Source of the DNA: Folioceros fuciformis
Taxonomy: Eukaryota
Reading direction: 5' to 3'
Assembly: GCA_049999805.1 (NCBI GenBank)
Contig: JBNGIO010005642.1
Coordinates: 108,447 to 144,110, forward strand
Length of the DNA: 35,664 bases
The notes below the pieces were generated by a model. It searched no databases and was not told the origin of the DNA. It saw nothing but the letters and a program-made list of their open reading frames with translations. Positions 1-35,023 of the stretch are shown piece after piece (position 1 is the stretch's first letter; each line of letters begins with the position of its first letter). The position numbers and the translations under genes are program-made.

Positions 1-1972
1 ATGCTGATTCTGACTATAGGCCTACTGTGCCGATAAGATTTCCAGTTTCAACACACTCTGATGAGGAAACCAAGATTGTGAGCCTTGGTTCTTTTGCTAT
101 TCCTTGTACCCCTCTGTGGTATAAGTGCCCTTACACCCATCTGAAGATGATGTGAGTGAGGATAGAGCACTGCCGCGAGTATCAGTGCCATGTGGTTAGC
201 TTTTACAGTAAGTGTTCCCTGTCTACTTTTATGTCAGCATCCCCATTGCTTTCTTCTCATAGTTCTCTAACAAGCTCCCACTTGCCTTGCAAGATCTGAA
301 CTAAGGCTGGAGGAAGAGCACAGCCTTGAGACTGAGGAGAGGATCTCCTACATGGAGCGTAGGAAGAGAAACTCTCCAAGATCGGATGAGAGCTTCACCA
401 CTCCTTCCGAACATGATCCTGATTCCTCTGAGCCTGATTACTTTGGCAGTCGTGCAAGTGTGGCTATAAATAGTGTGGAAGAAAACAGCGTAGACTGGGG
501 ATATGATTGGTAGTTTGGGTCACTAAACTGCAGGACTGAGGAAGTCATTCGGCTTCCCCATTTCTAAACATTTCATGTGCCTCTCGTGCAGCTCCCTACC
601 TAGGGCTTTTGTCATAATATCTGCTGGATTTTCTGCTGTTGGCACATACTCAAGTATAACCTGTCCACTCTTAATCAAGTCTCTGATGAAATGATACTCC
701 ACCTCAACGTGTTTTGTCCGTGAGTGATGCACAGGGTTTTGTGCAAGGTTTATAGAACCCTGACTGTCTGTTTTGATCACTGTGCAGGTGGGGAGAGGTA
801 GTCTGAGTTCACTGAAAAGCAGCTTGCACCAAGCAATTTCTTTAGAAGCGGCTGTGAGGACACGGTTCTCGGCTTCTGTGCTTGAAAGAGCAGCCGTTGG
901 TTGCTTCTTGCTGGACCAACAGATTGGTCCCCAAGCAAACATGACGATATATCAAGAGACAGATCTTCTACTGTCTATGTCACCAGCGTAGTCTGAATCA
1001 GTATATACATCTAGTTCAAGGGAGGCATCAGGTTTGTATTTGTAAACGATTCCATACTGTGCTGTCCCCTTTAAGTATCGAAATACCCTCTTAACACAAG
1101 TCCAGTGCTCCTGTGCAGGGTTTTCCAAGTATTGTGAGAGCACACTTGTGGAATATGCCACTTCAGGACGAGTAGTGTTGCTGCATATATGAGCTTTCCT
1201 ACTGCCTTGCGGTAAGGGATAGGAAGCATTTTGTCCTTTTCAGCTTGCGTTTGTGGGCTCATGGATTTGCTGAGCTTAAGTCCACTTGGTGGAGGTGTGA
1301 CTACAGGCTTTGCATCCTTGAGTCCAAGTTGGTCTACGCTATCAAGAAGGTATCTTGGTTGAGTGAGAGTTAAAACTCTTTTCTTTCAATCTCTCTGAAT
1401 ATGAATGCCAAGGCAGCTTTGTAAAGCTCCTAAGTTTGACATCTCGAACTTCTTGGATAGGAGGCCATTAATTTTTGTGATAAAGGAGGGACTGTTACAT
1501 GCGAGTATCAAGTCGTCCACATACACAGCAAGATAACATACAGTGTCTCCAGCCTTGTAGACATATAGGCTACCGTCTGAAACACATTTGATGAAGCCTA
1601 AAGCTCGCAGTTCCTCATCTAAAACTGCATTCCATTCAAGAGCTGACTGTTTTAAACCATACAGGGTCTTGATTAGGCGAAGAACATGGTCCTCTTTTCC
1701 CTTTACTACGTAGCCCATTGGTTGCTGCATATAGATTTCAGTATCCAGCTTGCCATGTAAGAAGGCTGTTTTGACGTCAAACATTTCCAACTCATAGTCA
1801 TGGTGTGCTGCTACTGCGCAGAGAACACGAAACGTGGCTAGTTTCACCACAGGAGCATAAGTTTCCAGATAATCCAGACCTGGTACTTGGGAGAAGCCAC
1901 GAGCAACGAGTCTGGCTTTGTACCTGTCAAAGGTACCATCTGCTTTAACCTTGAGTTTAAATACCCATTTAC

Positions 1973-2071
1973 NNNNNNNNNNNNNNNNNNNNNNNNNNNN
2001 NNNNNNNNNNNNNNNNNNNNNNNNNNNNNNNNNNNNNNNNNNNNNNNNNNNNNNNNNNNNNNNNNNNNNNN
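1973..2071. other. Assembly gap (~99 N) inside the copia RT
   Basis: Run of N characters. Confidence 1.
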
Positions 2072-5000
2072 NTCAGACTGAACGGCCTTTTTCCACTCTG
2101 CAGCATCTGGCCTACTCATAGCTTCTTCATAGGTGCGAGGCTCTGTAGGGTCCAAACTCATAGCATTAGCACGTGCTGAACTTGACCTGAAATCATGTGA
2201 TTGATAGTAATCAGGTGCACGTCTTTCTCTTGCAGGGTATCGACGTTCAGGTGGGGGTTCAGGATGTGGTAGTTGTTCAACTGCATCAGCGTCATCATCA
2301 CTCTCCAGAACAACGGCTACATCGTCTGCAACGTCATCATCATCTGGATCTGGTATGTTTGGTTGTAGCTCAACAGCAATGGGAGGTTGCTGCTGCTGCT
2401 CATCAAGGTCAACAAAGGCATCGTCCTCTGCTGGGTCAACTGGATTAACTTGATTATCATGCTCATCCCCCCATGCAGGAGCAATCTCCGCACGTGTTGA
2501 GTCATCAAAGAAAGTGATATTGGGGAGAACAGACAGATCATCACTATCATCTGGAGGTGTTCCCACTGGCGTCCAAACACGTCCTTCGTCAAAGGTAACG
2601 CTTCGTGCATTTATCACCTTGTTCTGAGGGACATCATACAGTTTATAAGCTTTTATGCCCTCAGTGTAGCCTATCATAAGGAGTTTTCTGGCTTTTGCAG
2701 ATAGCTTCTTACGCTTCTCCTTCGGGATGAAAGCATAAGCAATACAACCAAAGGTTCGAAGATGAAGGATAGACGATTTCCTGCCAAAGAAAGCCTCATA
2801 TGGCGTCTGACCTACAACTGCAGTGGTAGGTAATCTATTTCGTAAATACACAGCTGTCATTAGGGCCTCAGCCCAATAGGGCAATGGTAAGGTAGTCTGA
2901 TGCAGCAAGGAGGAAACCATCTCCTGCAAAGTCAAATTCAGGTGCTCTGCAACGCCATTTTGCTGTGGTGTATACACGACGGTGAGTTGGCGCCCAATAC
3001 CCTCCTTTGCACAATATGTTTGAAATTCGTTAGATGTGAATTCTCCTCAGTTATCTGAGCGGAGGGTCTTGAGCTGTTGTCCTGTCCATCTCTCAACAAA
3101 TTTTAAATAAGTTTTGAATTGAGAGAAGGCTTCACTTTTGGCCTTCAAGATATAAGCCATGACAAACCTTGTCTTGTCATCAGTGAAGGTTAGGAAATAC
3201 TTGCCACCACCTATGGAAGGCTGTGATAGTGGCCCACAAATATCAGTGTGGACTAGCTCGAGGACATCAGAGGCTCTGTGTGGGGTCCTGTTTTTGAAGG
3301 CTGCTTGGTGACGCTTAGATAACACACAAGCTTCACACAGAGGTAAGATAGGAAGAGTGCCAATCTTTCCATCATAGTATAGGTCACTGGTAGCCAGTTT
3401 TTGCAGCTTAGCACCATGTGGATGACCTAACCTATTGTGCCATAATATGGCTTTGTCTGTTTGATGTAAAGGTGAGAGGTCACCTTGTGACGTGAAGTGG
3501 GACTGGACAGGGATACTGTGCAAGTGAAGTCGGAATAGATCATGGTCAGAAGATCCATAAGCTAAGACCTTACGATGATCAAATGCATCAAGGATCTGGC
3601 ACTCTGTGGGGGTAAACAGAATGTGACTGTTGTTGTCTATGTTCAGTTGCCTGACAGAAATGAGGTTCCTAGTCATTCCAGGCACATAGTAAACATTGGT
3701 AAGGGACAGTTTTAGCCCTGAAGGCACAGGAAGGAACATTGTGCCCTTTCCTGGAGATACCAATGCCCTGTCATCACCTAAATAGACAAACTGATCCTTT
3801 ACTTGTCTGTAGGTGGAGAAGGCACTTCTATCAAAGCAAAGGTGCGCTGTTGCACCTGTGTCTAAGTACCACTCTTGAAATGGTCTAGACTCTGCTATGG
3901 CAGATAAGCATGTGGGAAAGACTAGAGGTTGAGCAAACTTCCTTACCCCTACTGTCAGGGCGGAAGGAGAGGATTGCTTCTTTACTACGACGTGTGTTTC
4001 AGCATTCGCATTGCCCTCCTTGCGAGGTATGCCAGCTTGCTTCTTACGACATTCGTTTTCCAATGGCCGGGAATTTTGCACCAGTTGCATTTCCCGGTCT
4101 TCTTGGGTTTCTTCTGTGAGGAAGCTCCCTGTGAGATCCTTGCAATAGGTGTAGTATTTTTGCCTCTAGGGTATGGTTTGTTTCCTCTGCCCTTGTTTGA
4201 GGTGTAGAGTGCTTGCTGTTTCCCATGCTTAGGTCCACCTCTCGTGGCTTCTTCTTGAAGAAGTGCTCCCACTAACTCAGAAAAGGTCATGGGAGGTAGC
4301 TTGATCCTGGCTGCAGATGCCAGTTTCTGAGCTTGTGCCTATGAGGTGTTATAAGAAGTCACAAAATTTGACCAGGAGGCAGGTAATGAAAGCATTAAAT
4401 AGAGTGCTAACATATCTTCCTTGATGGCTTCGTGTGTTGTTCCTTCCAACTAAGAAACAAGATGTCTGAAAGTAGCAATGTGCTTTTCTACTGAGTCACC
4501 ATCTCGCATCTTGCAGAGTTGAAGGTTTTTGAGGGCTGCCATCTGACTGGTTGAATTTCTACCAGAGTAAAGCTCACGAAGTCTAGACCAAATATCTGAT
4601 GCAGATACGGCTCCTAAAGTGTGCCTCAACATTTCAGAGGTTAGGCCACACCGTATCATGTACATGGCTGCGTCATTTCTGACTGTCCATGCCTTGACAG
4701 TTGCTGCATCATCTGTATCTAACTCATCATTTCCGGTTGTTACATCCCAGAGTCCTCTATTCTGAAGAGCACCCTGCATCCTCATTACCCACATATCGTA
4801 ATTCTCCCTTCCGAACCTGTCCTTTTCCTTAAACATGTCACTGCCTATGTTATAGGACAGTTTGGGTGTGGTATCTTCGTCACCCATGTTTGTAGGATTT
4901 AATAGACACTAATCTGTGTAGTTGTAACCTGTGTTGTGCAGGTTAATCACAACAGAGTTCTAGGAACAAATGTTAGGGGACAAATGATACCTGGTTCATG

Positions 5001-11600: not shown

Positions 11601-13426
11601 TACTTTCCGCCAGAACACCCTCACTAACGCTCGTAGAAATGTTTCTCAACACTATGATTTGGTCTGCCACACTTCCAGATCCTGTGCTCTCCTTCTTCCC
11701 TGTCGTCCACTCTCCGTTTGATGTTCTACGGTCTTCGTATCACGACTCCGGCTGATGTGGAAACTGATGGTGCACGTGCAGAGCAATGATATGTTCGCTC
11801 TCTTTTTAGACGAGACGATGACGTACTCATGTGCAATATTCAAGGTACCTTCAGCCTTCCCCCAGGTGTGCATTAGGCGTCCTGGATCTCCGCGTGAAGA
11901 GAAACTGAGAACAAGTATTTTTCTGCTTTTAATAATGTCACAGGGCCCCGAGGAATCTTTGGTGGATGCACAGAGGCGGAAACTGAATCACCTGGTCAAC
12001 AAGGTTGCTTCTGGTTGCAATTTGCCTGGCATCTTATGAGTGTTACCACCATGAGTTCCACTCACTTTCTACAACTTTCCTTGTCCGCTTGGCAGGCCAG
12101 GATAAAAAACACACATGAGGTGTTAGAAATCGGGTTCGGTTGGGGCAGTTTGGCGTTAGCTATTGTTCAGCAGACCGGGTGCAAGTACACAGGCATCACC
12201 CTCTCCGAAGAACAGTTGCAATACGCCCGAAGCCTTGTAAAGCAAGCCCAGCTGGAGGTATTTTTTTTTCGAACCACGGAACCTGCTCAATATGTTCGAT
12301 GTGCTGAAAACCTAACCTCTGATGCACCTGACAGCTCGTGCGACAATCTGATAGTGCTAAACCTCACTGTTGACAGGATAAAATCACCCTGAAGCTCTGT
12401 GACTACCGTTCTTTGCGTGGATATCACAAGTATGATCGGATTGTAGCATGGTGAGTGCAATTCGCTAGAAGTTTCTGTGTTTCAAATTCTTGTTTCAATG
12501 CAAGGAAGCGCGATGTTAACCTGTCCAGTGCCATGTCTTTTCCCAGCGAGATGTTAGAAGCAGTTGGTCACGAATACTACAAGGAGTTCTTCAGTCGGTG
12601 CGATCACCTTCTGGCCAAAGACGGGCTCCTAGTTGTACAGGTTGTTCCCTCTTCCAACTGCTGTTGCAAACGACACTTTCCGGTGTCTTCATACTAGCGT
12701 CCCTGCCATTCCGACAGGTTATCTCTATACCAGAAGAGAGGTACGAAACCTACCGTAGAAGCTCAGACTTCATCAAAGAGTACATCTTCCCTGGTGGATG
12801 CACTCCCTCGCTGAGCACTCTCACAGCAGCCATGGCGAGCGGATCAACTTTCTGGTACGACCTCACCCCTTTTCTCCATTCCTCTGTAGACTGGTAGATC
12901 TAATTCTCTTTCTTACTCCTCCAAAAAGCGGGGTCTATGCGGAGAACCAGGCACTCACTGTTGGTTGCTCTCACAGCGTGGAGCACATGGAGAACATTGG
13001 AGTACATTATAAGCAAACTTTGCACCGCTGGCGTGACAAGTTCTTGGCTAACGGCAGGTATGTAAAAGGCCCACAGTGGCAACACCACTTGCTATGCACT
13101 GACTTTCATGGCGACTTTGTGCTGAACCAGCTGGCTCATGCCATGTGGTGTGACAGTGAAATCCGGAAACTTGGTTTCAGCGAGAAATTCATCCGAATGT
13201 GGCAATACTATTTTGACTACTGTGCTGCAGGCTTCGAGACTTGCACTCTGGCCGATCTCCAGGTATTTCACATTTCCATTTTGCTGGTTATCGGGCTTGA
13301 TGAATTCCTGCTGCTCAATGTTGCTGTAAGTCAGTGTCTGTGATCTGTGATGAACAGATTGTCTTCTCTCGACCTGGAAATGTAGCGGTTCTAGGAGACC
13401 CCTCCGTCTCCTTCCCCAATGCATGA
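8664..13426 (+). CDS. Cyclopropane-fatty-acyl-phospholipid synthase, plant long form (N-terminal FAD-dependent amine-oxidase-like domain + SAM methyltransferase), 24 exons, ~864 aa
   Basis: Motifs MRVAVVGAGVAGLAAA, DVGFMVFNRVTYPNM, GAYQGYGFHEDG, HYDLSN, MTYSCA, VLEIGFGWG, EMLEAVGHE, FIKEYIFPGG, YFDYCAAGF. GT-AG exons: 8664-8837, 8924-9138, 9245-9353, 9460-9561, 9651-9710, 9823-9901, 9981-10128, 10213-10336, 10429-10609, 10696-10724, 10794-10942, 11018-11120, 11239-11334, 11413-11468, 11538-11661, 11782-11844, 11944-12003, 12096-12257, 12377-12450, 12547-12640, 12718-12854, 12977-13057, 13157-13262, 13358-13426. They sum to 2595 nt, in frame. Confidence 0.95.
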
Positions 13427-14629: not shown

Positions 14630-15400
14630 ATTCATTGAAACACACAGGTGGCAGATCCCAGGGGTTACATCCTCGAGTGTCGCCACATCCTTTACCTTCG
14701 TGGCCGAGTTATCAAACAGCTGCCGTACTATCTTCAAGCTCGCCACGCTTTGCAGACATATCCACCGGGCAGTTCACAACAAAATCCCGTGGACTATGTG
14801 ACCACCACCATCTTGCCCACTGTCAATGTGTATGTATGTAGTCGCCTGTCACGACTTCATTTTCCACCTCCAGGAGCAGAGCATCGTGGAAGGCGTCATC
14901 CAGCGTATGGCCTCCTCCTCTAGCCTATCTGCCGTGCATCATGAGGAAGAGTTGCTTCCCAAAACCGTATCCGACGCGTACCCAAGTTCGACTTGACCTC
15001 GTTCTTCGCTCTACACGGATCCTTAGCTGTACTCTGTTTTAGCGGTGTGCAAAGAAGAGCTTGACAAATGGCAGTGTTTCTCTGCACGAGGGCTTCCAAT
15101 TTTTAGGGCTCAAACGGCCACTACTCGCTCACTCTTCCAGCCGAAACCCTAAACGATTCAGATCCTTCAACCCTACATATACCAGGTTCAGGCTTATCAC
15201 GAGAGCTGGACTCGGAAGGAGAGGCACAATGGGCATCTGCATATCCAAGGAAACGAGTTGATCAATCAACCCAAGCTAGTCCAAACATTTTCCTCAGGCA
15301 CAGCACTTAACTACCCTAGACCACCCCGGGAGTGAGGCGAACAGGAGCTAGAATTCCAGACTTTTGCCCCACATCACGGTATTGTCCTGCAATAGTTGTA
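14630..15400 (-). pseudogene. Decayed copy of the N-terminal half (PDF motif + first PPR motifs) of the adjacent PPR gene
   Basis: Collinear matches: atatccaaggaaacgag 15241 vs 17552; ggaaggagagg 15214 vs 17524; atccgacgc(g/a)tacccaagtt 14969 vs 17260; tttgca(g/t)acat(a/g)tccacc(g/a)ggcagtt 14749 vs 16919. No long ORF. Confidence 0.85.
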
Positions 15401-15549
15401 TGTCTGCCTTACATCTTCGAGCACTCGTCCCTGTATGATCACACCACCCGTAGGACAGTCTCGACGGGTTTTCCTTGAAAAGAAAATATCGTTTCTAAGT
15501 TTTGGTGTCCAGAAGGAGGAGAGAATCGTGCCATTGTGAGGACTGGGAT

Positions 15550-18060
15550 TCACGATCGGCCACTACAACTGCAAAAACCAGCCGCGAATCGATGCACACG
15601 GTACCCATCCCTGACAATTATGTCTCTCTGCTCAAGCCTTGACATGATCTCCGTGGAACTGTGGCAGTCGCTGCACATGCGCAGATTCTTCGTTATCACC
15701 AGAGGTGTCCCACTAGGAGTGTTCAAGAGACCAAACGCCAAAGCTAGCTTCTCGGCATGGCCACAAAGCACATCTTCCTTTTCCTTTTCACACACTGGCT
15801 TCAACACCAATTTTGTGTGAGGCACGTGGCCCCCTTCCTGCTTCAAACGTGCATTCGTGCTGTCTACTTTGAGGGCAATGTCCTCCCTTGTTTCTCCTAC
15901 CGCAAAGCTATGTACCACACATTGCACCTCAACAGTCGCCACTGCAGGTTTCTTATTAGCTCCTGCTACTCTCCTCTGTGTCTCAATCCTGTCTACATCG
16001 CTCCACCTGCCTGCATCTGCAAAGACATTGGCCATAAGCACATACGCGGGTGCATGCTGGGAGTCCAGCCTTACAATGCTCTCAAAACACCACACCGCCC
16101 TCTCTATATCCCCATGACATTTGCTAGCGTTCAGCAAAGACATCAACCCCACAACGTCACTTTCGCCATCACATGATAATAGCATCTCCTCTGCCTCATC
16201 TAGATGGCCCGCACGCCCAAGGAGGTCAATCATACAATTGTGATGCTCAACAGTAGGATTGATGCCATGTTGTTCAGCCATGGAATGAAAGTACTTGCGA
16301 CCCTCATGGACCAGGCCCTCATGACTGCATGCTACCAAAAGGCAAGTAAAAGTTGTATCATTAGGCTGAATACCGGCAGCTAGCATCTCCTCAAAACAAG
16401 CTAGTGCCTTGTGACCTTCATCACAAGTACCGTATCCAGAAATCAGGGCGGTCCATGTCACCACGTCCTTTGTAGCCATGCAGTCAAACACCTGGCGAGC
16501 ATCTTCCAGTTCACCACATTTCGCATACATGTCCACCAGGCAGTTGCCCACCAGAACGTTCTCTAGGAGCCCTCTTCCTACAATATGTGAGTGCAGTTGC
16601 CTACCTCTCTGTAACGCACCAGTGCCTGCACAGGCCTTCAGAAGGCAAGCAAAAGTGATATGATTAGGCGAACTCAGGCCCTCCTGCTCCATTTGTTCAT
16701 ACACAACTAACGCCTCTTGGCCGAGCCCATGTTTTGCATACCCTGCAATCAGCGCCGTCCATGTCACAACATTTTTTGTGCGCATGCTGTCAAAAATCTG
16801 ACGAGCATGTTCCAGTTCTCCATATTTTGCATATCCAGATATCAGGGCATTCCATGTCCCCACATCCTTTGTGGCCATGCTATCAAAAACCTGGAGTGCC
16901 TCTTTCAGTTCACCACATTTTGCATACATGTCCACCAGGCAGTTTCCAACAAACACGTCAGGAGGAATGCCACTGTGTAATGCATCACAGTGCACTTTCC
17001 TACCAGATTCCAAGTCGGCCGAAAACGCACAAGCTTGAAGGGCAGCGACAAAGACGTGAGCATCCGCCTTCACTCCTGAGCTACGCATCTCATGGTACAG
17101 TTGCACGGCCTCCTTAGGTTTCCCATGCTTAGCATATGCAGAGATTATGGAAAACCACATGAAAACATCTGGTTTGCGCACCCTGGTGAACACATCCATG
17201 GCCTCCTGTAGACAACCTCGGCATGCGTACATGCGCAAAATATGGTTTCCCAAGTATGCATCCGACGCATACCCAAGTTTGCTTACGAGGTCATGAACTC
17301 GTCGCCCCACAACCAGATCCTTCTTAGCTATACACAGTTTTAGCACAGCGTAAAACAAAGATTGAGAAATAGAAGAGCCCGTCAACGTCAGAGATTCCAG
17401 GGCTCCAAAGGCCTCATACAGCTTCCCCTGCTGACATAACGTGCTCACAGTTGCAGCCGTAACGATGCCCATTTGGGATCCTGCACAGCTGTTAGACTCA
17501 GCCTTCTCCAGAGAGGTGCAGCCGGAAGGAGAGGCCCCATGACCCATCGCTATATCCAAGGAAACGAGCTGCTCATCAACCCAAGCTGGCTTGAACATGT
17601 TCTTTAACCACAGCACCTCGCCGGACCCCTTGCGCCGGAAGTGAGGGGGACGAAGCCCCCTCTTATGTCGTCTGTTGTCCCACCACATGGTAGGATCCAG
17701 AAAAAATTGCTGCCACAAGTGCTCCTGGCGACGACCATCGCTGGATAGCCCATCCTCACCCACATATTTCCTGGGTGATGGAAGTGCAGGGCTCCTTACA
17801 TTGCTGCTCCTGAAGGCTTGGCTGGTTGCCGGGGATTGATTCCCTGAGGGCAAGTAAGTGGCAACTCCTTGCAGATCCCTCGGCGTACACCAATTTGTTG
17901 GGTCCAAAACAGTCCCCGCCGCCGCATCGCCCCTTAGCCTGGAGCGAGCTGAATTGGGACGGCGTAGGCCAACTGTGACTGCGAACGACCTGCGGGATGA
18001 GAACACAAGTGGATGTCTCACACAATTAAGCAGAAGACATAGCTTCCTTTGCTTATTCAT
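15550..18060 (-). CDS. Intronless PLS-class pentatricopeptide repeat protein with E1-E2 and DYW:KP deaminase-like domain; N-terminal organellar-targeting-like peptide and OSB-type PDF motif (~836 aa from ATG 18060)
   Basis: ~13 PPR motifs (P-L-S-P-L-S-SS-P-L-S-P2-L2-S2), E1/E2, KKPAVATVEV box, HAEKLA...CSDCH zinc site, terminal CSCSGRS. The frame is also open upstream to 18210. Confidence 0.93.
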   Translation of the reverse strand: MNKQRKLCLLLNCVRHPLVFSSRRSFAVTVGLRRPNSARSRLRGDAAAGTVLDPTNWCTPRDLQGVATYLPSGNQSPATSQAFRSSNVRSPALPSPRKYVGEDGLSSDGRRQEHLWQQFFLDPTMWWDNRRHKRGLRPPHFRRKGSGEVLWLKNMFKPAWVDEQLVSLDIAMGHGASPSGCTSLEKAESNSCAGSQMGIVTAATVSTLCQQGKLYEAFGALESLTLTGSSISQSLFYAVLKLCIAKKDLVVGRRVHDLVSKLGYASDAYLGNHILRMYACRGCLQEAMDVFTRVRKPDVFMWFSIISAYAKHGKPKEAVQLYHEMRSSGVKADAHVFVAALQACAFSADLESGRKVHCDALHSGIPPDVFVGNCLVDMYAKCGELKEALQVFDSMATKDVGTWNALISGYAKYGELEHARQIFDSMRTKNVVTWTALIAGYAKHGLGQEALVVYEQMEQEGLSSPNHITFACLLKACAGTGALQRGRQLHSHIVGRGLLENVLVGNCLVDMYAKCGELEDARQVFDCMATKDVVTWTALISGYGTCDEGHKALACFEEMLAAGIQPNDTTFTCLLVACSHEGLVHEGRKYFHSMAEQHGINPTVEHHNCMIDLLGRAGHLDEAEEMLLSCDGESDVVGLMSLLNASKCHGDIERAVWCFESIVRLDSQHAPAYVLMANVFADAGRWSDVDRIETQRRVAGANKKPAVATVEVQCVVHSFAVGETREDIALKVDSTNARLKQEGGHVPHTKLVLKPVCEKEKEDVLCGHAEKLALAFGLLNTPSGTPLVITKNLRMCSDCHSSTEIMSRLEQRDIIVRDGYRVHRFAAGFCSCSGRS

Positions 18061-18064
18061 GCCA

Positions 18065-18280
18065 ATGGTCGCCACTGTAGGTTTCTTGTTAGCTCCTGCT
18101 GCTCTTCTCCATGCTTCAGCCCAGTGTATCGGTTCACCTGCCTGCATTTGCGGGGAAAATAACCCTGAGCACATACATGTGTATGCAGGCGTAACCAGGG
18201 GTCCACCCAAACAGTGTTATTCCCGTTTGTATCGTGGTGACTACCTTTGCAAGCATTCAGCAGGCGAAGTCATCAGCATG
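18065..18280 (-). pseudogene. Decayed copy of the E1-E2-KP box segment of the PPR gene, immediately upstream of its ATG
   Basis: gtcgccactg(t/c)aggtttctt(g/a)ttagctcctgct 18068 vs 15935; cacctgcctgcat and agcacatac shared; tttgc(a/t)agc(a/g)ttcagca 18246 vs 16120. Translates RRAAGANKKPTVATI vs RRVAGANKKPAVATV. Confidence 0.88.
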
Positions 18281-19799
18281 AATGGATGGAAACGACTCGA
18301 AGCCTGATGTGGGAATGGATTACACGGATATAACAAACAACACATCTGTTGGTTACACCCCATGTTCCGAATCTTGCATCGTCGGAAACGACTTAAATTG
18401 CAAGGTTTGGCTGCCTCGAAACATGATGTGGGACTGGAAATTCCAGTGTCACTTTGGTCGAGTCCCGAGCTCGGTCCTGCAAGTTTAAAACAAAATTGGG
18501 AACCGAAGGCTAGTGAAAAGTCCAGTCCCGAGCTTCGATCCCCATTTTCTTCGGCGACCGACGGTTCCAAAAAAGGCCCGTCCTCCTGTCACATGGAATG
18601 GCATTGTCAAAGCTGGGGAAGAGCAGCCTCCACAGCAGAATATACCAGACTTTTTTTATTTTTAAATAATTTACTTAGTATTTGTTACGTATAAGGACCA
18701 AGAGTGGAAAAAGGCGACGTCCCTTACGCCTGGGTTGGTGCCAACCCAAGTGTCGCTGTCATTAGCCTTGTACATACAAGCTGCAGCTTCTTCTCTTGGG
18801 AATTTTCTGCATTTCTTGTTATCATAGTTAAAATCTCACTGATTGTCAACTAGCTATTGGTCAATAAGACGGATCACATAGCGGACGAAGTACTCATGCT
18901 GCTATATGGATTAGCCTAGGGATCCCTCATGGATTGGGGCAAGGTAGTAGCCCATAGCATCTAGTCTCTGAGGTTAGAAGACTAAGATAGAGGGTTAGAA
19001 GGCTAAGACAGGAAATGCCACCCACTTCAGGCTTGCCTCCTTTCCTCTTCCATATTTGGGGTCACTGCAAGGCCCTCACAGACTTAGAAAGACAATCCCT
19101 AGTCTGACTCATGCTAACCTCTCGTCTAACTGCTCTAGTTCCCGCACCCAGGAAGAAGGCCCTGGCACCCGCAACTCATCCAGTCACCCTACCCTCAACA
19201 CCCGTGTCGCTGCCAGTCTTCGATAGTACACTGGAAGATATGACTGGTAGATACCCATACGGAGCCTCTCCAATGACTCTAGCATCAGTGCCTAGTTCCC
19301 CTGCCAATCCTCCTTCAGCCAAGAAGCGGCAAGTCACTACTCTAGCGAAGGAGAAGCCAGCTTCTAAACGACAGAGTGCTCGGGCTCTAGTCCAGTCCCC
19401 GAAGTGGATTATGCTCCTGAGTGCCCTCCCACCCACCAGCCCATAGCCCGAAGATTTATAAGTACCCGAACGTAGACCATAGGTTGCTCCCATATCAAGG
19501 GAGCAAGCAGATCCTACTGGCAACATAGTTGGACTACAATGAGAAGCACCAAATTGGTCTGTTTGGGTAAAACGGCCTCCATCTCTGCACGGCAGGTAAA
19601 AAGGGAGGGGGGCCTCACTCCCCTAGCCCACCTCCGGCCAAAATAGTGCGACCTCCCGCACTACGACCTACTGAAGAGGAACAAGAGCAGCGGAGAGCCC
19701 TACCCTAGTCCATTGTTTTGGAATATTTGATTGAAGGGGGCATCACCGATCCGGAGGCTATGAGATAGGCCATATGGACGTCATTCAGGAGGCCGCATT

Positions 19800-23919: not shown

Positions 23920-26900
23920 ACAGTGAGCAAATCGTGGCTGGCCTTCCCGGCGCATCATCAGCCGCAATCTTTGAAGTTCAGCTGGACTAACCAACAACAG
24001 CAGAATTTGGGAACTCGCAGATTAGATAGGTTCTATGTCCCATCTGGTTGGTTGCCTCTGGTGCAGTCATATAATATTCTCGCTGGTACAATCCTGTCGG
24101 ACCAATTAGCTGCCCTTGCCCAAACCCTTGCCCCTGCCTCGGGGCGCCAGAGGAGGCATATGCAAAAATTTCGGATGAACACATCCTTACTTAAGGAAAA
24201 AGGTGTGTTCGAGGAGGTCAAAAGCATTTGGTAGGGAACAGAGCAAGGGGAAGAACTTGTTGTTTCCAAATTGATTTGTGCTAACAACATCGCGATTAGG
24301 TACTTGAGGAAACGGGGGGTCCAATGGGCGAAGGAACTGTGCCAGCAAGAATGTTTTTGGAGAGAGGAACTAAGCTGGCTGCAAAGGAGTTGAGAGGAAC
24401 GGGACTTCACAATCGAAGAAGAAGCCTTGGAAAACAGAGGTGTAATGCACCTTGGCCAAATTGGAACAAGACAAAGCCAGAGGTTGGTTTAAACGGGCGA
24501 AGGTTAAGTGGGTGAGGGAAGGGGACGGTCCGTCTAAATTCCTTTTCGCTAAGGTCACCTGGCTACTAATCGGCATAGGTCGCACATTCCTGCTCTTCCG
24601 GACGCATAAGGAGTGGTACAGGAGTCTCTTGAAGGTTTGAAAAAGCTCATCACCCTCTTCTTTGTGGGAATTTTTTCCAACGTTCGGAAGGTGGTTGGGT
24701 GGGAGCAGCTCTGGTCATCTTCCTACGGGACACTCTCGGCTAAAGTGTCTGAAGCCTAGCGCAAGGCACTGGATAAGCTGATTACTGCAGATTAAGTACT
24801 CCAAGCTCTGAAGGGGTTGTCGAGGAATAAATCCGCGGGTCATGACGGTATCCCACCCAAGTTTCTGCTATGGGGGTGGGAGTTTATGGAGCCTTTATTC
24901 ATGGAGGCGGTGGACATGATTTGAGAGGAAGGTAGCATGGGGAATTGGTTTAACATGGGGGTCATCGCATTGCTCCCTAAGCAGGACGCCAGTCTATCAA
25001 TCTCCAATTGGCGCCCAATCACATTGCTTACAACTACGTACAAGATGATAGCTAAGGTTTTGGCCAACCGCATCAAGCCTTTTCTGGATGATTGGATTGA
25101 GAAAGGGCAGCGGGGGTTCATCCAAAACAGATGCATCTTGGACAACCTTCTGCTCTTGCGGGAAGCTAAGTATAATACAAAAGTTCAGAAGAAAGCTGTC
25201 GTTTTCATTTCCCTGGGTTTTTACAAGGCTTATGGTTCCATTGAGTGGCACTTCTTGTGGAGGTGCTTGCGTAGCTTTGGGTCCGGGAATAACTTCTGTA
25301 GGTGGATCGCCATTTTGTGTGAAGATGAAGGGGCAAAGGTGGCTGCCAATGGATCCTTTACGGAGCGCTTTGGCATTCATTGGTCGGTACGTCTGGGTTG
25401 CCCCCTTGCTCCATTCTTATTTATTATTGTTATTGACTTCTTCCTCCGAGCAGTCAAGCAAGACCAGGCAATCAAGGGTATTCGCAACCCAAACGGATCG
25501 CAGTCAAGGGTCTCTGTGTTTGCAGACGATACCCTTTTTTTTTCGTCGATAGAGGAGGCCTCTTTGAATGCTCGGCTCCCGCAGGTCAAGGTCTTTAGGG
25601 AGTTGTCGGGTTGCAAGGTTAATTGGAATAAGACTCACATGATGTGTTTACACATGCAAGGGGAGCTACCTCCATGCATTCAGCACATTCGGCGAGTGAC
25701 GCAAGGGTCCTCTCACAAATATCTGGGACTTCCCTTCCATGAGGGAAATGAGAACGGTGAGATAGGTAAGTATGTGTGCCTTAGATTTATTCGTAAAGCG
25801 GCGAGTTTGCAGCTGTTGGAGCTTAACCTTGCAGGAAGGCTGGTGGTGATTAACCATAGCCTCTCTATGGTATTATTTGTTCTTATGGGCCCCTTCCAAG
25901 ACAGAGGTGAAGAGGTTGCAAAAGGTGTTGACTTCATTCTTGTGGAAACATGCGGGGGATAGCTCAGCTGTGTGCTCTAAGGTGGCTTGGCAACACATTA
26001 TTCAGGCAAGTAGTTTAGGGGGGCTTGGGGTGGTTGATCCAGTTGCCAAGATGGAAGTCTTGCATGCTCACTGGGTTGTCTGGGCGGCGAATCCTACCTA
26101 CTACCCCTGGAAGAACCTGCTAACACAATATTTGGAGTGCACTCAAGCTGACCCTAGAGGAAGGAGGTCTATTGACAACATCCTTGCTGATAAACCACTT
26201 CTTAATATGGCAGAGTACTCCCCACTCTTCAAGTCAATCTGGAGTAGCTACTTAGAGGTTAAGTGGTGCATTATCCCTAGTAACCCTTTGCACGTTGATG
26301 ATGTTCTGGGTGTTCCTTTGCAAGGTTTCTCGATGTTGTGGGCTCAAGAATTTAGGGCAAGGGTGTATCGGTCACAAATCTTCGGATTGACGTGTCGGAA
26401 AGGAGTTATCCAGCTCGGTCACTTATGGAACAGATCAGAGGCCCGTTGGAAGGAGGTGGAGGAAGTCAAGGGTGAATTGGTTTAGTGGCTAGACATGTTA
26501 GGCACATTTTTTTCATGGTTGCAAGAGGGGTTAGAGGATAAGGTACAACAGGTTTTAAGGCAACAACCTACCCGGGGCGCCGAGGGGTGGTATGTGTACT
26601 CCATGGATAGTAAGGGAGTCGATTCTGAGGAGGATGAACAGGAGTAAGACCTTGAATTGGATAGAGTTGTTTGGCTTACAGGCACGGCTGATAAAGAAGA
26701 ACTGCGGTCATTCAAGGTCCTCTTGCTTGTAGGGCTTTTGGAAGATCAGGGCAGGGAGGACGGTGCTATTCGAAGAGGGGAACTAAGGGCCATCACAATC
26801 CTCTCTAAGTCTGTTCGCGCAGGGCGGTGGTGCACCCAAGTCGAACGTTCTAGTGGGCCACAAACTTCGGACAAGCTAGTTGTACGATGTTGGTTTCGGC

Positions 26901-32464: not shown

Positions 32465-35023
32465 ATGGTGCGTGACACCCAGCCTTTACCTGTCAAGGAC
32501 ACCCCTTGCCCAGTGTGTTCTCAACTTTGCTCCGGGGTCAAGGGGGTGAAGTGCCATATTGGTCAAGAGCATAAGAACTTCGATAGGACCACTCGGGTGG
32601 CACAAGTGCAACTTGCTTCTTCCTCCGAACCAGCTACCAATCCTCTTCTAACAGATCCTCTGGGGCCGTCCCCGGAGGCTGGTTGTGGCTTCGAGGGCAA
32701 TCTGATCACTTGCTGGCTCTTTTCAATGCTCGTTTTCCATGTCCTCGCCTCTTCTGACGTCTCTCTAGGCGCCTACATGATGATATTCGCCTTGCTTATC
32801 GTCTTCCCTTGGATCACCTTGCTCGGGACCCGAGGGATGAGGGTGCTTGGATTTTGTTCCTTTTCCTGCCTAGATGGTGCCTTCGGCGCTCTAGGGGTAG
32901 TCCATCAGGTCATAGGGAGGTGGCCTCTTGACTTTGTCGTTTTCGATCCGAAGATTGGCAAGCTCTTCAGGAGAAGGATCTACTAGCAGCAAAATCTCGA
33001 TCGGAGTAAGCTAAGGTTGACAAGGTATGCCATGACCCATTTATAGCGCGTCTTAAGCGGTGTCTCATGTTGGGCAGGGATGGTGAATATGCTCGGGCTG
33101 CTAGAGTATTGTGCCCAGACCCGGCTGCATCTGCAACTGAGGACACCATTGCTGCACTTCGTGCCCTTCATCCAGAACCTCATGACACTATACCGCAAGA
33201 TCTTCTTGACCACACGGTCGAGGAGCCTTTTTGCTTAGATAGGGTTGTTTTTGGACATTCACTCTCTTCTACGCCGCGACTTTCTTCAGGGGGTTTGTCT
33301 GGCACAGTTTATGACCACTTTTTAGATTATTTTTCTCTTGAGGATCCCTCAAGTGGTTTTTCGGAGCTTTATACACTAGCAGCTGCTATGGCTAGGGGCG
33401 AAGTTCCCAATCGAATCTCTCAAGTTTTGGCGGCTAGTAGGCTACTTGCATTGGAAAAGCCCACCTCAAGGGTGCGCCCTATTGCTGTGGGGGAGGTATT
33501 TTTGCGCCTTATCAGCCGAAGTATCGCAATTCAACTTCGGGAGTACTTCCAAGCGCATCTTGCACCCCACCAATTTGGGATTGCTACCCCAGGTGGGTGT
33601 GAATCTGCCGCTCTTGGCATCCAGGCGGCCCTTGAGTTACATCCTTACTACCTAGCTTTGCAGGTTGATATTGAAAATGCTTTCCACACCGTCTCTAGGG
33701 TTGCCATCTTCTCAGAGGTCGAGAGTGCAGGAGATCAATTGGCAAGTCTTATCCCTTTCGTTCGCTCCTTCTATGGCTCGCCATCCAAGCTCTCCTACCA
33801 ACACGGCCCGACTATTGAGGGGGTGTTATGCTGTTGCTGTATGGGAAACAGAGCACCTAAGACTCTATGACTGGATACTGACTAGAGCATCCTGGGCATA
33901 AGCCCTGAATGCTGAAATGACTAGATACTGACTGGAGCATCTCGGGCATAAGCCCTGATGCTGAAGTGCTTGATGATGTCATGTACATGGCCCATGGATG
34001 GCCTGCACATGACATGTATGCCATATATGCATGTGTGCCATGTATGCATGCATATGGAGATGAAGGATGACATATGATGTATGTGGACATGTGGCAGGTG
34101 ATGTGTCATGGCGCATGCAACCTATATGCATGGTTGTGCATGAAAGGTGCGGTGCTATGCCGCATATATAGATAGCAGATTTATATTAGAAGATATTAGA
34201 AAATACATAAAAATCATAAATCAAGGAAAGTAGGATTATAAAGTGCCCACCATCGATACGGGTGGACACTTCATCGAGAACTCCTGAGGGTTTTTGCCTA
34301 TATATGTAGGCACCCAGCCATGGATTCTCGGATTGTTGATGTTTGTCTTGTTCCAATAGACAGCCATACTTCGTCCCTGCTGTGTCTTTGTCTCCTAGAG
34401 GTTCTTGTGGTTCGTTGCATTGCCAGGTTGGGAGAATTTTCCAGCTTGATTTCACCTGTTGACGGGTCCCGGGTCTGCCTCTCTTAGGCAAACCTAGTCT
34501 CTTTTTGTAGCCTTGCTCTTGGCCATAGGTCAAGGACAAATTAAGGCTAGGATTGTTGCTCCTGGGCCGAAGGCCAAGGAGATCGCAGGCAGGCAGAAGC
34601 TTAGTGACCTAGCTTGGTAGACAGGCTAGGTAGGCATGCAGCTATGCGGCTGCTGCGCGACAGGGGTCTCAGTTTTTGATTCAGCAATAGGCACAAGGCA
34701 AGGGGATCCGTTGGGGGGTGCTCCTTTTGCAATGGCGCATTTTCGTGCGTTGTCCTCTATTGCCTTAGCATTTCGGGAATGCCTTTTCCCTTCCGTGGTT
34801 GATGACACTCATTTTCTTGGGCAAGGAGTCACAATCAAAGCAGCATTTGATTTCTTCTCATCACAGCTCTCCAAGGTGGGGTTGCGGGTCAAGCTATCTA
34901 AATGTAGGGTTTGGTCCCCTTCAAGCATCACTCCCCCCCCTTCAATATTTGGGGGGGGATATCACCCCCTCACAAGGACTTCGAGTCTTGGGACCTCCTG
35001 ATTTTGTTCATAGGTTTGTGGAT
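32465..35023 (+). mobile_element. CRE-clade-like non-LTR retrotransposon (N-terminal C2H2 finger + RT), interrupted by a solo LTR and ending at a second LTR insertion
   Basis: CPVCSQLCSGVKGVKCHIGQEH; RLLALEKP..VRPIAVGEVFLRL; HQFGIATPGGCE; VDIENAF; after the insertion GTRQGDPLGG, VDDT, GLRVKLSKC, GLRVLG. No APE endonuclease before the RT. Confidence 0.8.
33824..34662. mobile_element. Solo LTR (839 bp, TG...CA) with GGGG target-site duplication
   Basis: Termini TGTTATGC...GCGCGACA, flanked by GGGG on both sides. Removal restores the host RT frame. Internal ~50-bp duplication (33870-33965) and a tatata box. Confidence 0.8.

What the first reader, a model, noticed from the sequence alone, without database searches (positions are those of the whole stretch)
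17565..17725. OSB-type 'PDF' ssDNA-binding motif fused in front of a PPR-DYW:KP editing factor
Seen: LWQQFFLDPTMWWDNRRHKRGLRPPHFRRKGSGEVLWLKNMFKPAWVDEQL lies between the targeting peptide and the first PPR. Known: this matches the C-terminal PDF repeat of plant organellar single-stranded DNA-binding (OSB) proteins (W..FF..P..WWDNR..K....PDFKHK.TGEALWL...P.WV), here with PDF changed to PHF. Standard PLS editing factors have no such domain. Inference: an editing factor with an extra nucleic-acid-binding module that might tether it to nucleoids/transcription bubbles, or assist U-to-C editing. The decayed neighbour also carried it, so the fusion predates the duplication. I cannot verify whether this architecture has already been reported in hornwort PPR surveys.
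Basis: partly seen in the sequence, partly recalled or inferred. Interest (0 to 1): 0.8.

Follow-up and report, generated by a model that had tools for sequence, protein, structure and literature searches.

The report
ssDNA-binding motif on RNA-editing protein
A plant gene for an organelle RNA-editing protein carries, in front of its RNA-reading repeats, a small domain otherwise known from organelle DNA-binding proteins, and this combination turns out to be common in hornwort-like, clubmoss, fern and peat-moss proteins.

Summary
Window 17566-17718 (minus strand) encodes the quoted 51 residues, aa 165-215 of an intact 886-codon frame (15550-18210) that continues into PLS PPR repeats, an E motif and a DYW:KP-type deaminase domain ending GRS. 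A 76-aa piece around the stretch finds 501 proteins at E <= 0.001 among 1.84 billion, including named OSB1/OSB3 proteins (Populus OSB1, E 9e-20), and keeps 13 invariant motif columns. Only PDF is changed, to PHF.

The fusion is not peculiar to this gene or to U-to-C editors. Of 368 proteins fetched, 68 combine PDF motifs with PPR arrays, and in 67 the PDF lies N-terminal, in 1-3 copies. Eighteen end in canonical DYW and three are KP-like. Named sources are Diphasiastrum, Selaginella, Adiantum, Ceratopteris and Sphagnum.

The motif is a conserved island (51% identity against 12-19% in its flanks). It folds confidently as a separate small domain on a disordered linker.

The likely role is an accessory single-strand nucleic-acid anchor, but this is inferred. 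No paper in the searchable library links the PDF motif with PPR proteins. Expression is untested.

The parts
15550..18060 (-). Probable coding sequence of the PDF-PPR-E-DYW:KP protein, from ATG (Met51 of the frame) to the stop codon at 15550-15552; 836 codons, no intron needed
   Evidence: Open frame 15550..18210. In-frame ATGs at 18174, 18147 and 18060. Met51 is chosen because similarity to a duplicated DYW fragment ends there and a basic, Ser/Arg-rich N-terminus follows. The start is inferred and has no transcript support.
17719..18060 (-). N-terminal presequence-like region, aa 51-164, poorly conserved
   Evidence: Mean identity 0.12 to three KP-type homologues. No Pfam hit. Organelle targeting is inferred from composition only.
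17566..17718 (-). OSB-type PDF motif (PHF variant), aa 165-215
   Evidence: Mean identity 0.51 to KP homologues. Confident small alpha/beta model, pLDDT 84.2.
17461..17565 (-). Linker, aa 216-250, poorly conserved and predicted disordered
   Evidence: Identity 0.19. pLDDT below 50 for aa 225-244 in the aa 150-420 model.
16117..17460 (-). PLS-class PPR array, aa 251-698
   Evidence: Pfam PPR_2 E 3.8e-64, PPR E 9.4e-63, PPR_1 E 8.5e-51. Helical repeats from aa 252.
15955..16116 (-). E motif (Pfam span aa 699-761; shown here up to the KP box)
   Evidence: PF20431 E 2.8e-15.
15553..15954 (-). DYW:KP-type deaminase domain. It has a KP box (KKPAVA, 15937-15954), HAEKLA, CSDCH, Lys841 at domain position 88 by counting, and a C-terminal GRS
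   Evidence: PF14432 E 1e-32. Motif positions. The KP/GRP subclade and Lys88 come from passages of PMC9478123 and PMC11845758.
18061..18185 (-). Upstream remnant of an E2/DYW:KP junction (contains KKPTVA), in frame with the gene and ending at its ATG
   Evidence: DNA alignment to the gene's own 15860-16060. KP-box pattern hit at 18070-18087.
14657..15412 (-). Decayed partial copy directly downstream of the stop. It holds a degraded PDF motif (15255-15412) followed by the first PPRs, with stops, frameshifts and deletions
   Evidence: tblastn pieces covering aa 199-313, 311-323 and 417-459. Three-frame reading. DNA alignment.

Best explanation
The window holds an intact nuclear gene, probably of a hornwort, for a PLS-class PPR-E-DYW:KP protein of the GRP/GRS type, the class that carries out U-to-C editing of organelle RNA. 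Its N-terminus carries one OSB-type PDF domain. This is an independently folding module of about 55 residues (helix, small beta-hairpin, helix), joined to the first PPR by a flexible linker of about 25-35 residues. The gene belongs to an old and widespread subfamily of PPR proteins with 1-3 N-terminal PDF domains. That subfamily also includes C-to-U type (DYW:PG) proteins and proteins without a DYW domain. The most likely mechanism, which is inferred, is this: the PDF domain keeps the activity it has in OSB proteins, namely sequence-independent binding of single-stranded nucleic acid with a preference for ssDNA. It thereby anchors the editing factor to single-stranded DNA in the organelle nucleoid (transcription bubbles, R-loops, replication or recombination intermediates), so that the PPR array meets its RNA target as it is transcribed. 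Shown here: homology, architecture, conservation, independent fold and spread. Inferred: binding activity, its ligand, organelle targeting and expression.
For: Homology: 501 hits at E <= 0.001, with named OSB proteins among them, and 13 invariant motif columns. One frame runs from Met51 through the PDF motif, PPRs, E motif and DYW domain. The architecture recurs: 8 of 10 long hits with an N-terminal motif are PPR proteins, 12 of the best 150 representatives, 26 of the best 120 in the motif-profile search, and 38 of the best 120 full-length homologues. In all, 68 of 368 proteins held combine PDF and PPR, with PDF N-terminal in 67 of those 68. Selection: the motif is 51% identical to three KP homologues against 12% and 19% in its flanks, which matches the PPR array at 54%. 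Fold: pLDDT 84.2 when modelled alone; in the aa 150-420 model, two confident domains are separated by a stretch with pLDDT below 50. Biochemistry from papers (passages read): the PDF motif is responsible for, and sufficient for, ssDNA binding in AtOSB1, and OSB1/OSB2 prefer ssDNA to dsDNA or RNA (PMC6963530; PMC4166229; PMC6451138). Paralogues: in four public runs, tens of contigs at least 90% alike cover the motif region. A loose-end consensus there reads ..SPDFR.., so related copies keep the canonical PDF.
Against: No binding, localisation or editing data exist for any PDF-PPR protein. This copy has His for the nearly invariant Asp of PDF. No RNA run holding the gene was listed, so expression and the 5' end are unknown. 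The gene sits among retroelements next to a decayed copy. A PPR array already binds RNA, so an RNA ligand for the PDF domain is about as plausible as ssDNA. The counts of PDF-PPR proteins come from searches whose queries contained the motif, so they are enriched and are not frequencies.
Confidence: 0.4

Rival explanations
1. The PDF domain binds single-stranded RNA rather than DNA. Because it sits N-terminal of the PPR array, it would lie on the RNA 5' of the PPR footprint. There it would add sequence-independent affinity and keep the target unfolded, doing in cis what helper proteins do in trans in seed plants.
For: PDF is N-terminal of the PPR array in 67 of 68 PDF-PPR proteins, and occurs in 1, 2 or 3 copies (40, 21 and 7 proteins). 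The flexible linker would let it reach flanking RNA. Extra PDF copies lengthen the stretch of single strand needed for OSB3 binding (PMC6451138 passage). The orientation of PPR arrays on RNA, N-terminus at the 5' side, is recalled knowledge.
Against: OSB1 and OSB2 were reported to prefer ssDNA over RNA (PMC4166229 passage). Nothing has been measured for PPR-linked PDF domains.
Confidence: 0.3
2. The PDF domain is a protein-protein module. It might dock to OSB proteins, to other PDF-bearing PPR proteins or to other nucleoid or editosome components, rather than bind nucleic acid.
For: It is a small, independently folded domain on a flexible tether. AtOSB2 is reported to be a tetramer (PMC6963530 passage).
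Against: The papers read attribute ssDNA binding, not oligomerisation, to the PDF motif. The conserved Trp, Arg and Lys residues fit a nucleic-acid surface; that reading is my inference.
Confidence: 0.1
3. In this particular copy the motif, or the whole gene, is a young relic without function. The family feature is real, but this locus is drifting: PDF has become PHF, a decayed copy lies next door, and the surroundings are rich in transposable elements.
For: The Asp-to-His change falls at a column that is at least 90% conserved. A decayed partial copy lies directly downstream and a gene fragment lies upstream. Retroelement ORFs occur in the window. No RNA holder was listed.
Against: 836 codons are open from Met51. 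All catalytic motifs of the DYW:KP domain are present. The other 13 invariant motif columns are kept. Other natural motif copies also vary at this triplet, for example PGF, PNF and RDF.
Confidence: 0.15
4. The resemblance is due to chance, or the fusion is an artefact of reading through two separate genes.
For: None beyond the absence of a transcript.
Against: E-values reach 1e-47. The same architecture appears in independently predicted proteins of at least five named genera. There is no stop between the motif and the PPRs.
Confidence: 0.02

Closest known systems
[quoted passage not shown]
   Same: The 50-residue PDF motif has the same conserved Trp, Phe, Pro, Asp, Arg, Lys and Leu positions, and the sequence match is strongly significant.
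   Different: There is no SSB/OB-like domain. The motif is N-terminal rather than C-terminal and is followed by a PPR array and a deaminase. PDF is changed to PHF.
PPR-DYW:KP proteins of hornworts (GRP variant; basis of the designer proteins KP2/KP3), the U-to-C RNA editing factors
   Same: PLS PPR array, E motif, DYW-family domain with a KP box, HxE, CxxCH and a lysine at domain position 88, and a GRS end close to GRP. The closest relatives, P0096 and P0260, end in GRP.
   Different: It has an extra N-terminal PDF domain, which the passages I read from papers on this class do not mention.
Domain fusions of editing factors surveyed across Archaeplastida (PPR with RRM, MORF or RanBP2 zinc finger; PMC13386178)
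   Same: An accessory nucleic-acid-binding or helper domain is fused to a PPR protein.
   Different: That paper's text has no occurrence of OSB, PDF or single-stranded DNA. Its supplementary tables could not be seen.
PDF-PPR proteins annotated only as hypothetical or generic PPR proteins in Diphasiastrum complanatum, Selaginella, Adiantum, Ceratopteris and Sphagnum compactum
   Same: The same architecture: 1-3 N-terminal PDF motifs, a PLS PPR array, often an E motif and sometimes a DYW domain.
   Different: Those with a DYW domain are mostly of the canonical PG/DYW (C-to-U) type. Many have two or three PDF copies and longer arrays.

Membership tests
PDF motif (as defined for OSB proteins) | A motif of about 50 residues with the conserved signature including Pro-Asp-Phe | tested here: met
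   There are 13 invariant columns shared with 10 other copies and 8 invariant plus 7 nearly invariant columns in 39 sequences. E is 9.3e-20 to Populus OSB1. The Asp of PDF is His in this copy.
OSB protein family | An SSB/OB-like domain N-terminal of the PDF motif(s) | tested here: not met
   Pfam finds no SSB domain (PF00436) in P0001. The only other families are PPR/TPR-type repeats, E motif and DYW deaminase. The protein carries an OSB motif but is not an OSB protein.
OSB protein family | Preferential binding of single-stranded DNA through the PDF motif | not testable with these tools
   This is known for AtOSB1/2 from passages of PMC6963530, PMC4166229 and PMC6451138. It needs a gel-shift assay for this protein.
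PLS-class PPR editing factor | A PPR array followed by E motif(s) | tested here: met
   PPR_2 E 3.8e-64, PPR E 9.4e-63, E_motif E 2.8e-15.
DYW:KP subfamily | A DYW-family deaminase domain with HxE and CxxCH zinc-binding motifs | tested here: met
   PF14432 E 1e-32. HAEKLA and CSDCH are found.
DYW:KP subfamily | A KP-type box in place of the PG box, and a non-DYW C-terminal triplet | tested here: met
   KKPAVATVEV is at the PG-box position and the protein ends in GRS. Homologues end in GRP or DRH, whereas PG-type controls show PGxSW and DYW. The criteria come from a PMC9478123 passage.
DYW:KP subfamily | A conserved lysine at domain position 88, essential for U-to-C activity | tested here: met
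   Lys841 in ..ITKNLRMC.. is position 88 if the 133-residue domain starts at aa 754. This comes from counting against the PMC11845758 passage, not from an alignment to their set.
DYW:KP subfamily | U-to-C editing activity on organelle RNA | not testable with these tools
   It needs an editing assay.

The most novel reading that the evidence does not exclude
PDF-PPR proteins are a distinct, ancient branch of editing factors that work on the nucleoid itself. The PDF domain would hold the displaced DNA strand of a transcription bubble or R-loop while the PPR array reads the nascent RNA. In the boldest form, the PPR-DYW part would act on single-stranded organelle DNA as well as RNA, which would give a route for fixing or erasing editing sites at the DNA level in the hyper-editing lineages (hornworts, lycophytes, ferns).
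Probability: 0.07. Interest if true: 0.9.

Novelty: new variant of a known kind. Interest (0 to 1): 0.6.

Why it matters
PLS-class editing factors are usually described as a targeting peptide, a PPR array and C-terminal E/DYW domains. Helper functions are ascribed to separate proteins. Here a DNA-maintenance motif is built into editing factors of both the C-to-U and U-to-C types, in several early-diverging land-plant lineages. The motif is conserved as strongly as the PPR array itself. If the domain binds ssDNA, it would physically link RNA editing to the nucleoid and to transcription. If it binds RNA, it is a natural affinity module that designers of synthetic PPR editors could copy. Either way it defines an easily testable and, as far as my searches reach, undescribed subfamily. 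It also shows that the PDF motif is a mobile domain, not a private feature of OSB proteins.

Tried and rejected
Searches and look-ups that gave nothing usable:
- Plus-strand reading of the given coordinates gives only stops. The motif is on the minus strand.
- Pfam has no model for the motif.
- A sequence search of solved structures with the piece found only chance-level matches to CP29 (E 0.2).
- A word-index search of the motif region among proteins of 487-1551 aa found nothing. This is a limit of the index, since HMMER found such proteins.
- No whole genome is held for the window, so paralogues in the same genome could not be counted.
- The look-up of sequencing runs listed no RNA holder.
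- The ESM Atlas gave no usable hit.
- Earlier-findings look-ups by sequence and by place gave nothing.

Laid runs: the four runs are contigs of unknown kind. Parts with little cover (17748-18015 and 15336-15469) say nothing about expression.

Fold searches with the PDF model gave no clear match. The best Foldseek E was 4.3 and the best VIA-align Z was 4.2. This shows neither a new fold nor a known one.

Papers: Zaegel 2006, Gerke 2020 and Gutmann 2020 are not held, so I cannot exclude that one of them, or a supplement, mentions the fusion.

Considered and rejected:
- A specific link between the PDF motif and U-to-C editing.
- A single simple tandem-repeat unit for the three local copies; the spacing does not fit.
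Full report
**What is in the sequence**

On the plus strand the given coordinates read only as stops. On the minus strand the window holds one long open frame, 15550..18210, of 886 codons.

Pfam places these families downstream of it:
- PPR repeats (PPR_2 E 3.8e-64; PPR E 9.4e-63)
- an E motif at aa 699-761 (E 2.8e-15)
- a DYW-family deaminase domain at aa 794-884 (E 1e-32)

Pfam reports nothing for aa 1-250.

The deaminase domain has KKPAVATVEV where canonical proteins have the PG box. It also has HAEKLA and CSDCH, and it ends in GRS. Passages of PMC9478123 state that the PG box, the active site and the C-terminal triplet distinguish DYW:PG from DYW:KP. They also describe a GRP variant taken from an Anthoceros genome. 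The closest homologues found here end in GRP.

By counting, Lys841 is position 88 of a 133-residue domain. That is the lysine PMC11845758 reports as essential for U-to-C editing.

The gene is therefore an intact PLS PPR-E-DYW:KP gene.

**Start of the gene**

In-frame ATGs lie at 18174, 18147 and 18060. The roughly 125 bases upstream of 18060 are a copy of the gene's own E2/DYW junction, including a KP box (KKPTVA), and the similarity stops at that ATG. From Met51 a basic, Ser/Arg-rich stretch without acidic residues follows, which looks like an organelle presequence. I take Met51 as the start. This is inferred, because no transcript evidence could be obtained.

**Is the motif a PDF motif?**

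Yes. The 76-residue piece aa 150-225 (P0002) was scored by HMMER against 1.84 billion representative proteins. It gave 501 proteins at E <= 0.001, 104 at <= 1e-10 and 12 at <= 1e-30. Most hits are 250-500 residues long with 2-4 matched stretches near the C-terminus.

Cluster look-up names one of them OSB1 of Populus (P0033, E 9.3e-20). The profile search lists many proteins that their sources call OSB1, OSB2 or OSB3.

Aligned with ten motif copies from other proteins, 13 columns are invariant. In a 39-sequence alignment, 8 are invariant and 7 nearly so. The one departure is His for the nearly invariant Asp of Pro-Asp-Phe. Other natural copies also vary there, for example PGF, PNF and RDF.

The protein is not an OSB protein, because it has no SSB/OB-like domain.

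**The architecture is widespread**

- Of ten long hits with the motif near the N-terminus, eight are PPR proteins by Pfam. The other two are a kinesin and a weak SSB match.
- Twelve of the best 150 representatives are PPR proteins.
- In the profile search with the motif alignment, 1142 proteins scored E <= 0.001. By my reading of the table, 26 of the best 120 carry PPR families. Twenty-four of these are 'hypothetical protein' of Diphasiastrum complanatum, and three carry the DYW family.
- Of the best 120 full-length homologues of the window's protein, 38 have the motif by an HMM built from the alignment.
- Over all 368 proteins fetched, 68 have both PDF and PPR. In 67 of these 68 the PDF copies lie N-terminal of the array. 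Forty have one copy, 21 have two and 7 have three.

Named sources are Diphasiastrum, Selaginella, Adiantum, Ceratopteris and Sphagnum compactum. None of the seed-plant PPR proteins in these lists (Cryptomeria, Ginkgo-type identifiers, Phalaenopsis) had the motif.

These counts come from searches whose queries contained the motif. They show occurrence, not frequency.

**Not tied to U-to-C editing**

Of the 68 PDF-PPR proteins, 21 have a full DYW domain. Eighteen of those end in DYW, 15 with a clear PG box, and three are KP-like (P0096, P0260, P0313). The other 47 lack a full DYW domain. A Sphagnum protein (P0149) combines PDF, PPR, E, E+ and a canonical DYW.

Among the closest KP-type relatives, P0096, P0260 and P0313 have the motif, the last two with canonical PDF. 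P0259, P0265, P0268 and P0343 do not, although some of those gene calls may be cut at the N-terminus.

**Conservation and fold**

Mean identity of the window's protein to P0096, P0260 and P0313, by segment:

| Segment | Mean identity |
|---|---|
| Before the motif | 0.12 |
| PDF motif | 0.51 |
| Linker | 0.19 |
| PPR array | 0.54 |
| E motif | 0.54 |
| DYW domain | 0.66 |

The motif is therefore an island kept as well as the functional core.

AlphaFold2 on the motif alignment gives a confident model, with mean pLDDT 84.2. It consists of a helix, two to three short strands and a second helix. Folded together with the first PPRs (aa 150-420; pLDDT 89.2), the motif and the repeats are both confident. 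They are separated by aa 225-244, which have pLDDT below 50. This fits an independent domain on a flexible tether.

Neither Foldseek (best E 4.3) nor VIA-align against 48,161 chains (best Z 4.2) gave a clear structural relative. That result is uninformative.

**Relations among motif copies**

I built a FastTree of 614 distinct PDF instances. On it the label 'in a PPR protein' changes 10 times. The ten printed shuffles (of 200 run) gave 94-99 changes.

The window's motif pairs with that of P0096 (support 92). Its next neighbours are mostly PPR-linked copies. A clade of 76 copies is purely PPR-linked and, in the 40 names printed, nearly all Diphasiastrum proteins.

A 55-residue motif cannot resolve deep branches, and relatives share labels. 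This fits few fusion events but does not prove one.

**Local history**

Directly after the stop codon lies a decayed partial copy on the same strand (14657-15412). Its PDF stretch (15255-15412) has 93 of 151 aligned bases identical and 9 gap columns. It is followed by fragments matching aa 199-323 and 417-459, with stops and frameshifts. Together with the upstream DYW-junction fragment, this shows repeated local duplication and decay. The spacing does not fit one simple tandem unit.

**Public runs**

No RNA holder was listed. Four runs kept as contigs, whose kind is only guessed, were laid on 14800-18800. One run holds about half of the sampled words and includes pieces with no differences. 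It also covers the decayed region, so it may well be DNA.

In all four runs, tens of contigs at least 90% alike overlap the motif. At 17602, 17695 and 17710 the counts are 27-33, 59-73, 60-74 and 29-40 contigs. These are of the same order as in the PPR region, where site 16859 gives 61, 96, 93 and 70.

A loose-end consensus at 17661, read in the gene's frame, has ..SPDFR... This suggests a sizeable family of close paralogues that keep the canonical PDF. It is not a copy number.

**Mechanism**

From papers (passages only):
- The OB-like domain does not contribute.
- OSB1 and OSB2 prefer ssDNA to dsDNA or RNA.
- An extra PDF copy increases the length of single strand needed.

(PMC6963530; PMC4166229; PMC6451138.)

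On that basis I favour an accessory, sequence-independent single-strand anchor. The ligand is open. One option is organelle ssDNA, which would tether the factor to the nucleoid for co-transcriptional editing (0.4). The other is the RNA 5' of the PPR footprint (0.3). A protein-protein role (0.1), a drifting relic in this one copy (0.15) and an artefact (0.02) are the other readings. None of these was tested here.

**Novelty**

Six full-text searches found no paper linking the PDF motif or OSB with PPR editing factors (and for the DYW:KP literature). The only paper holding both 'PDF motif' and 'pentatricopeptide' uses the latter for the PPR domain of mitochondrial RNA polymerase.

A 2026 survey of domain fusions of editing factors has no occurrence of OSB, PDF or single-stranded DNA in its text. 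Its supplements are closed.

Zaegel 2006, Gerke 2020 and Gutmann 2020 are not held, so an earlier mention cannot be excluded.

I rate the finding a new variant of a known kind: two known modules in an apparently undescribed, conserved and widespread combination.

Noticed in passing
window 18061-18185 (-): About 125 bases just upstream of the likely start codon are a diverged copy of the gene's own E2/DYW:KP junction, including a KP box (KKPTVA). The copy is in frame with the gene and ends exactly at the ATG. The 5' region of the gene was therefore built from a fragment of another DYW:KP gene.
   Followed up: partly
window 14657-15412 (-): A decayed partial copy of the same gene (PDF motif plus first PPRs, with stops, frameshifts and deletions) starts about 140 bases after the stop codon.
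   Followed up: yes
window 1386-4090 (-), N run 1973-2072: Ty1/copia-type retroelement ORFs (RVT_2, Pol beta-barrel, gag-pre-integrase, integrase core), interrupted by a 100-N assembly gap.
   Followed up: partly
window 24937-26485 (+) and 33067-33870 (+): Two non-LTR-type reverse transcriptase ORFs (RVT_1, E 2.4e-34 and 5.7e-07).
   Followed up: partly
window 12798-13343 (+): An ORF with a short match to cyclopropane-fatty-acyl-phospholipid synthase (CMAS, E 1.7e-07). It may be one exon of a host gene.
   Followed up: no
proteins P0004, P0003, P0010, P0017, P0023: These proteins have 9-13 tandem PDF motif stretches, for example a 1160-aa Kingdonia uniflora protein with no precomputed Pfam domain. 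They look like poly-PDF proteins far beyond the one to four copies described for OSBs in the passages I read.
   Followed up: no
protein P0008: A 521-aa protein with five PDF stretches is attributed to the snow alga Sanguina aurantia, a chlorophyte.
   Followed up: no
protein P0043: A 1526-aa Coptis chinensis protein combines three PDF stretches with a kinesin motor domain. It could be a real fusion or a merged gene model.
   Followed up: no
protein P0328: A 1095-aa PPR-E-DYW protein attributed to the amoeba Balamuthia mandrillaris ranks among the plant homologues.
   Followed up: no
window 15470-17747, runs X2, X6, X9: Runs of three other coded organisms hold thousands of short contig pieces 90-99% alike to this gene. 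This points to a very large, recently expanded family of near-identical PPR-DYW:KP genes in those organisms.
   Followed up: partly
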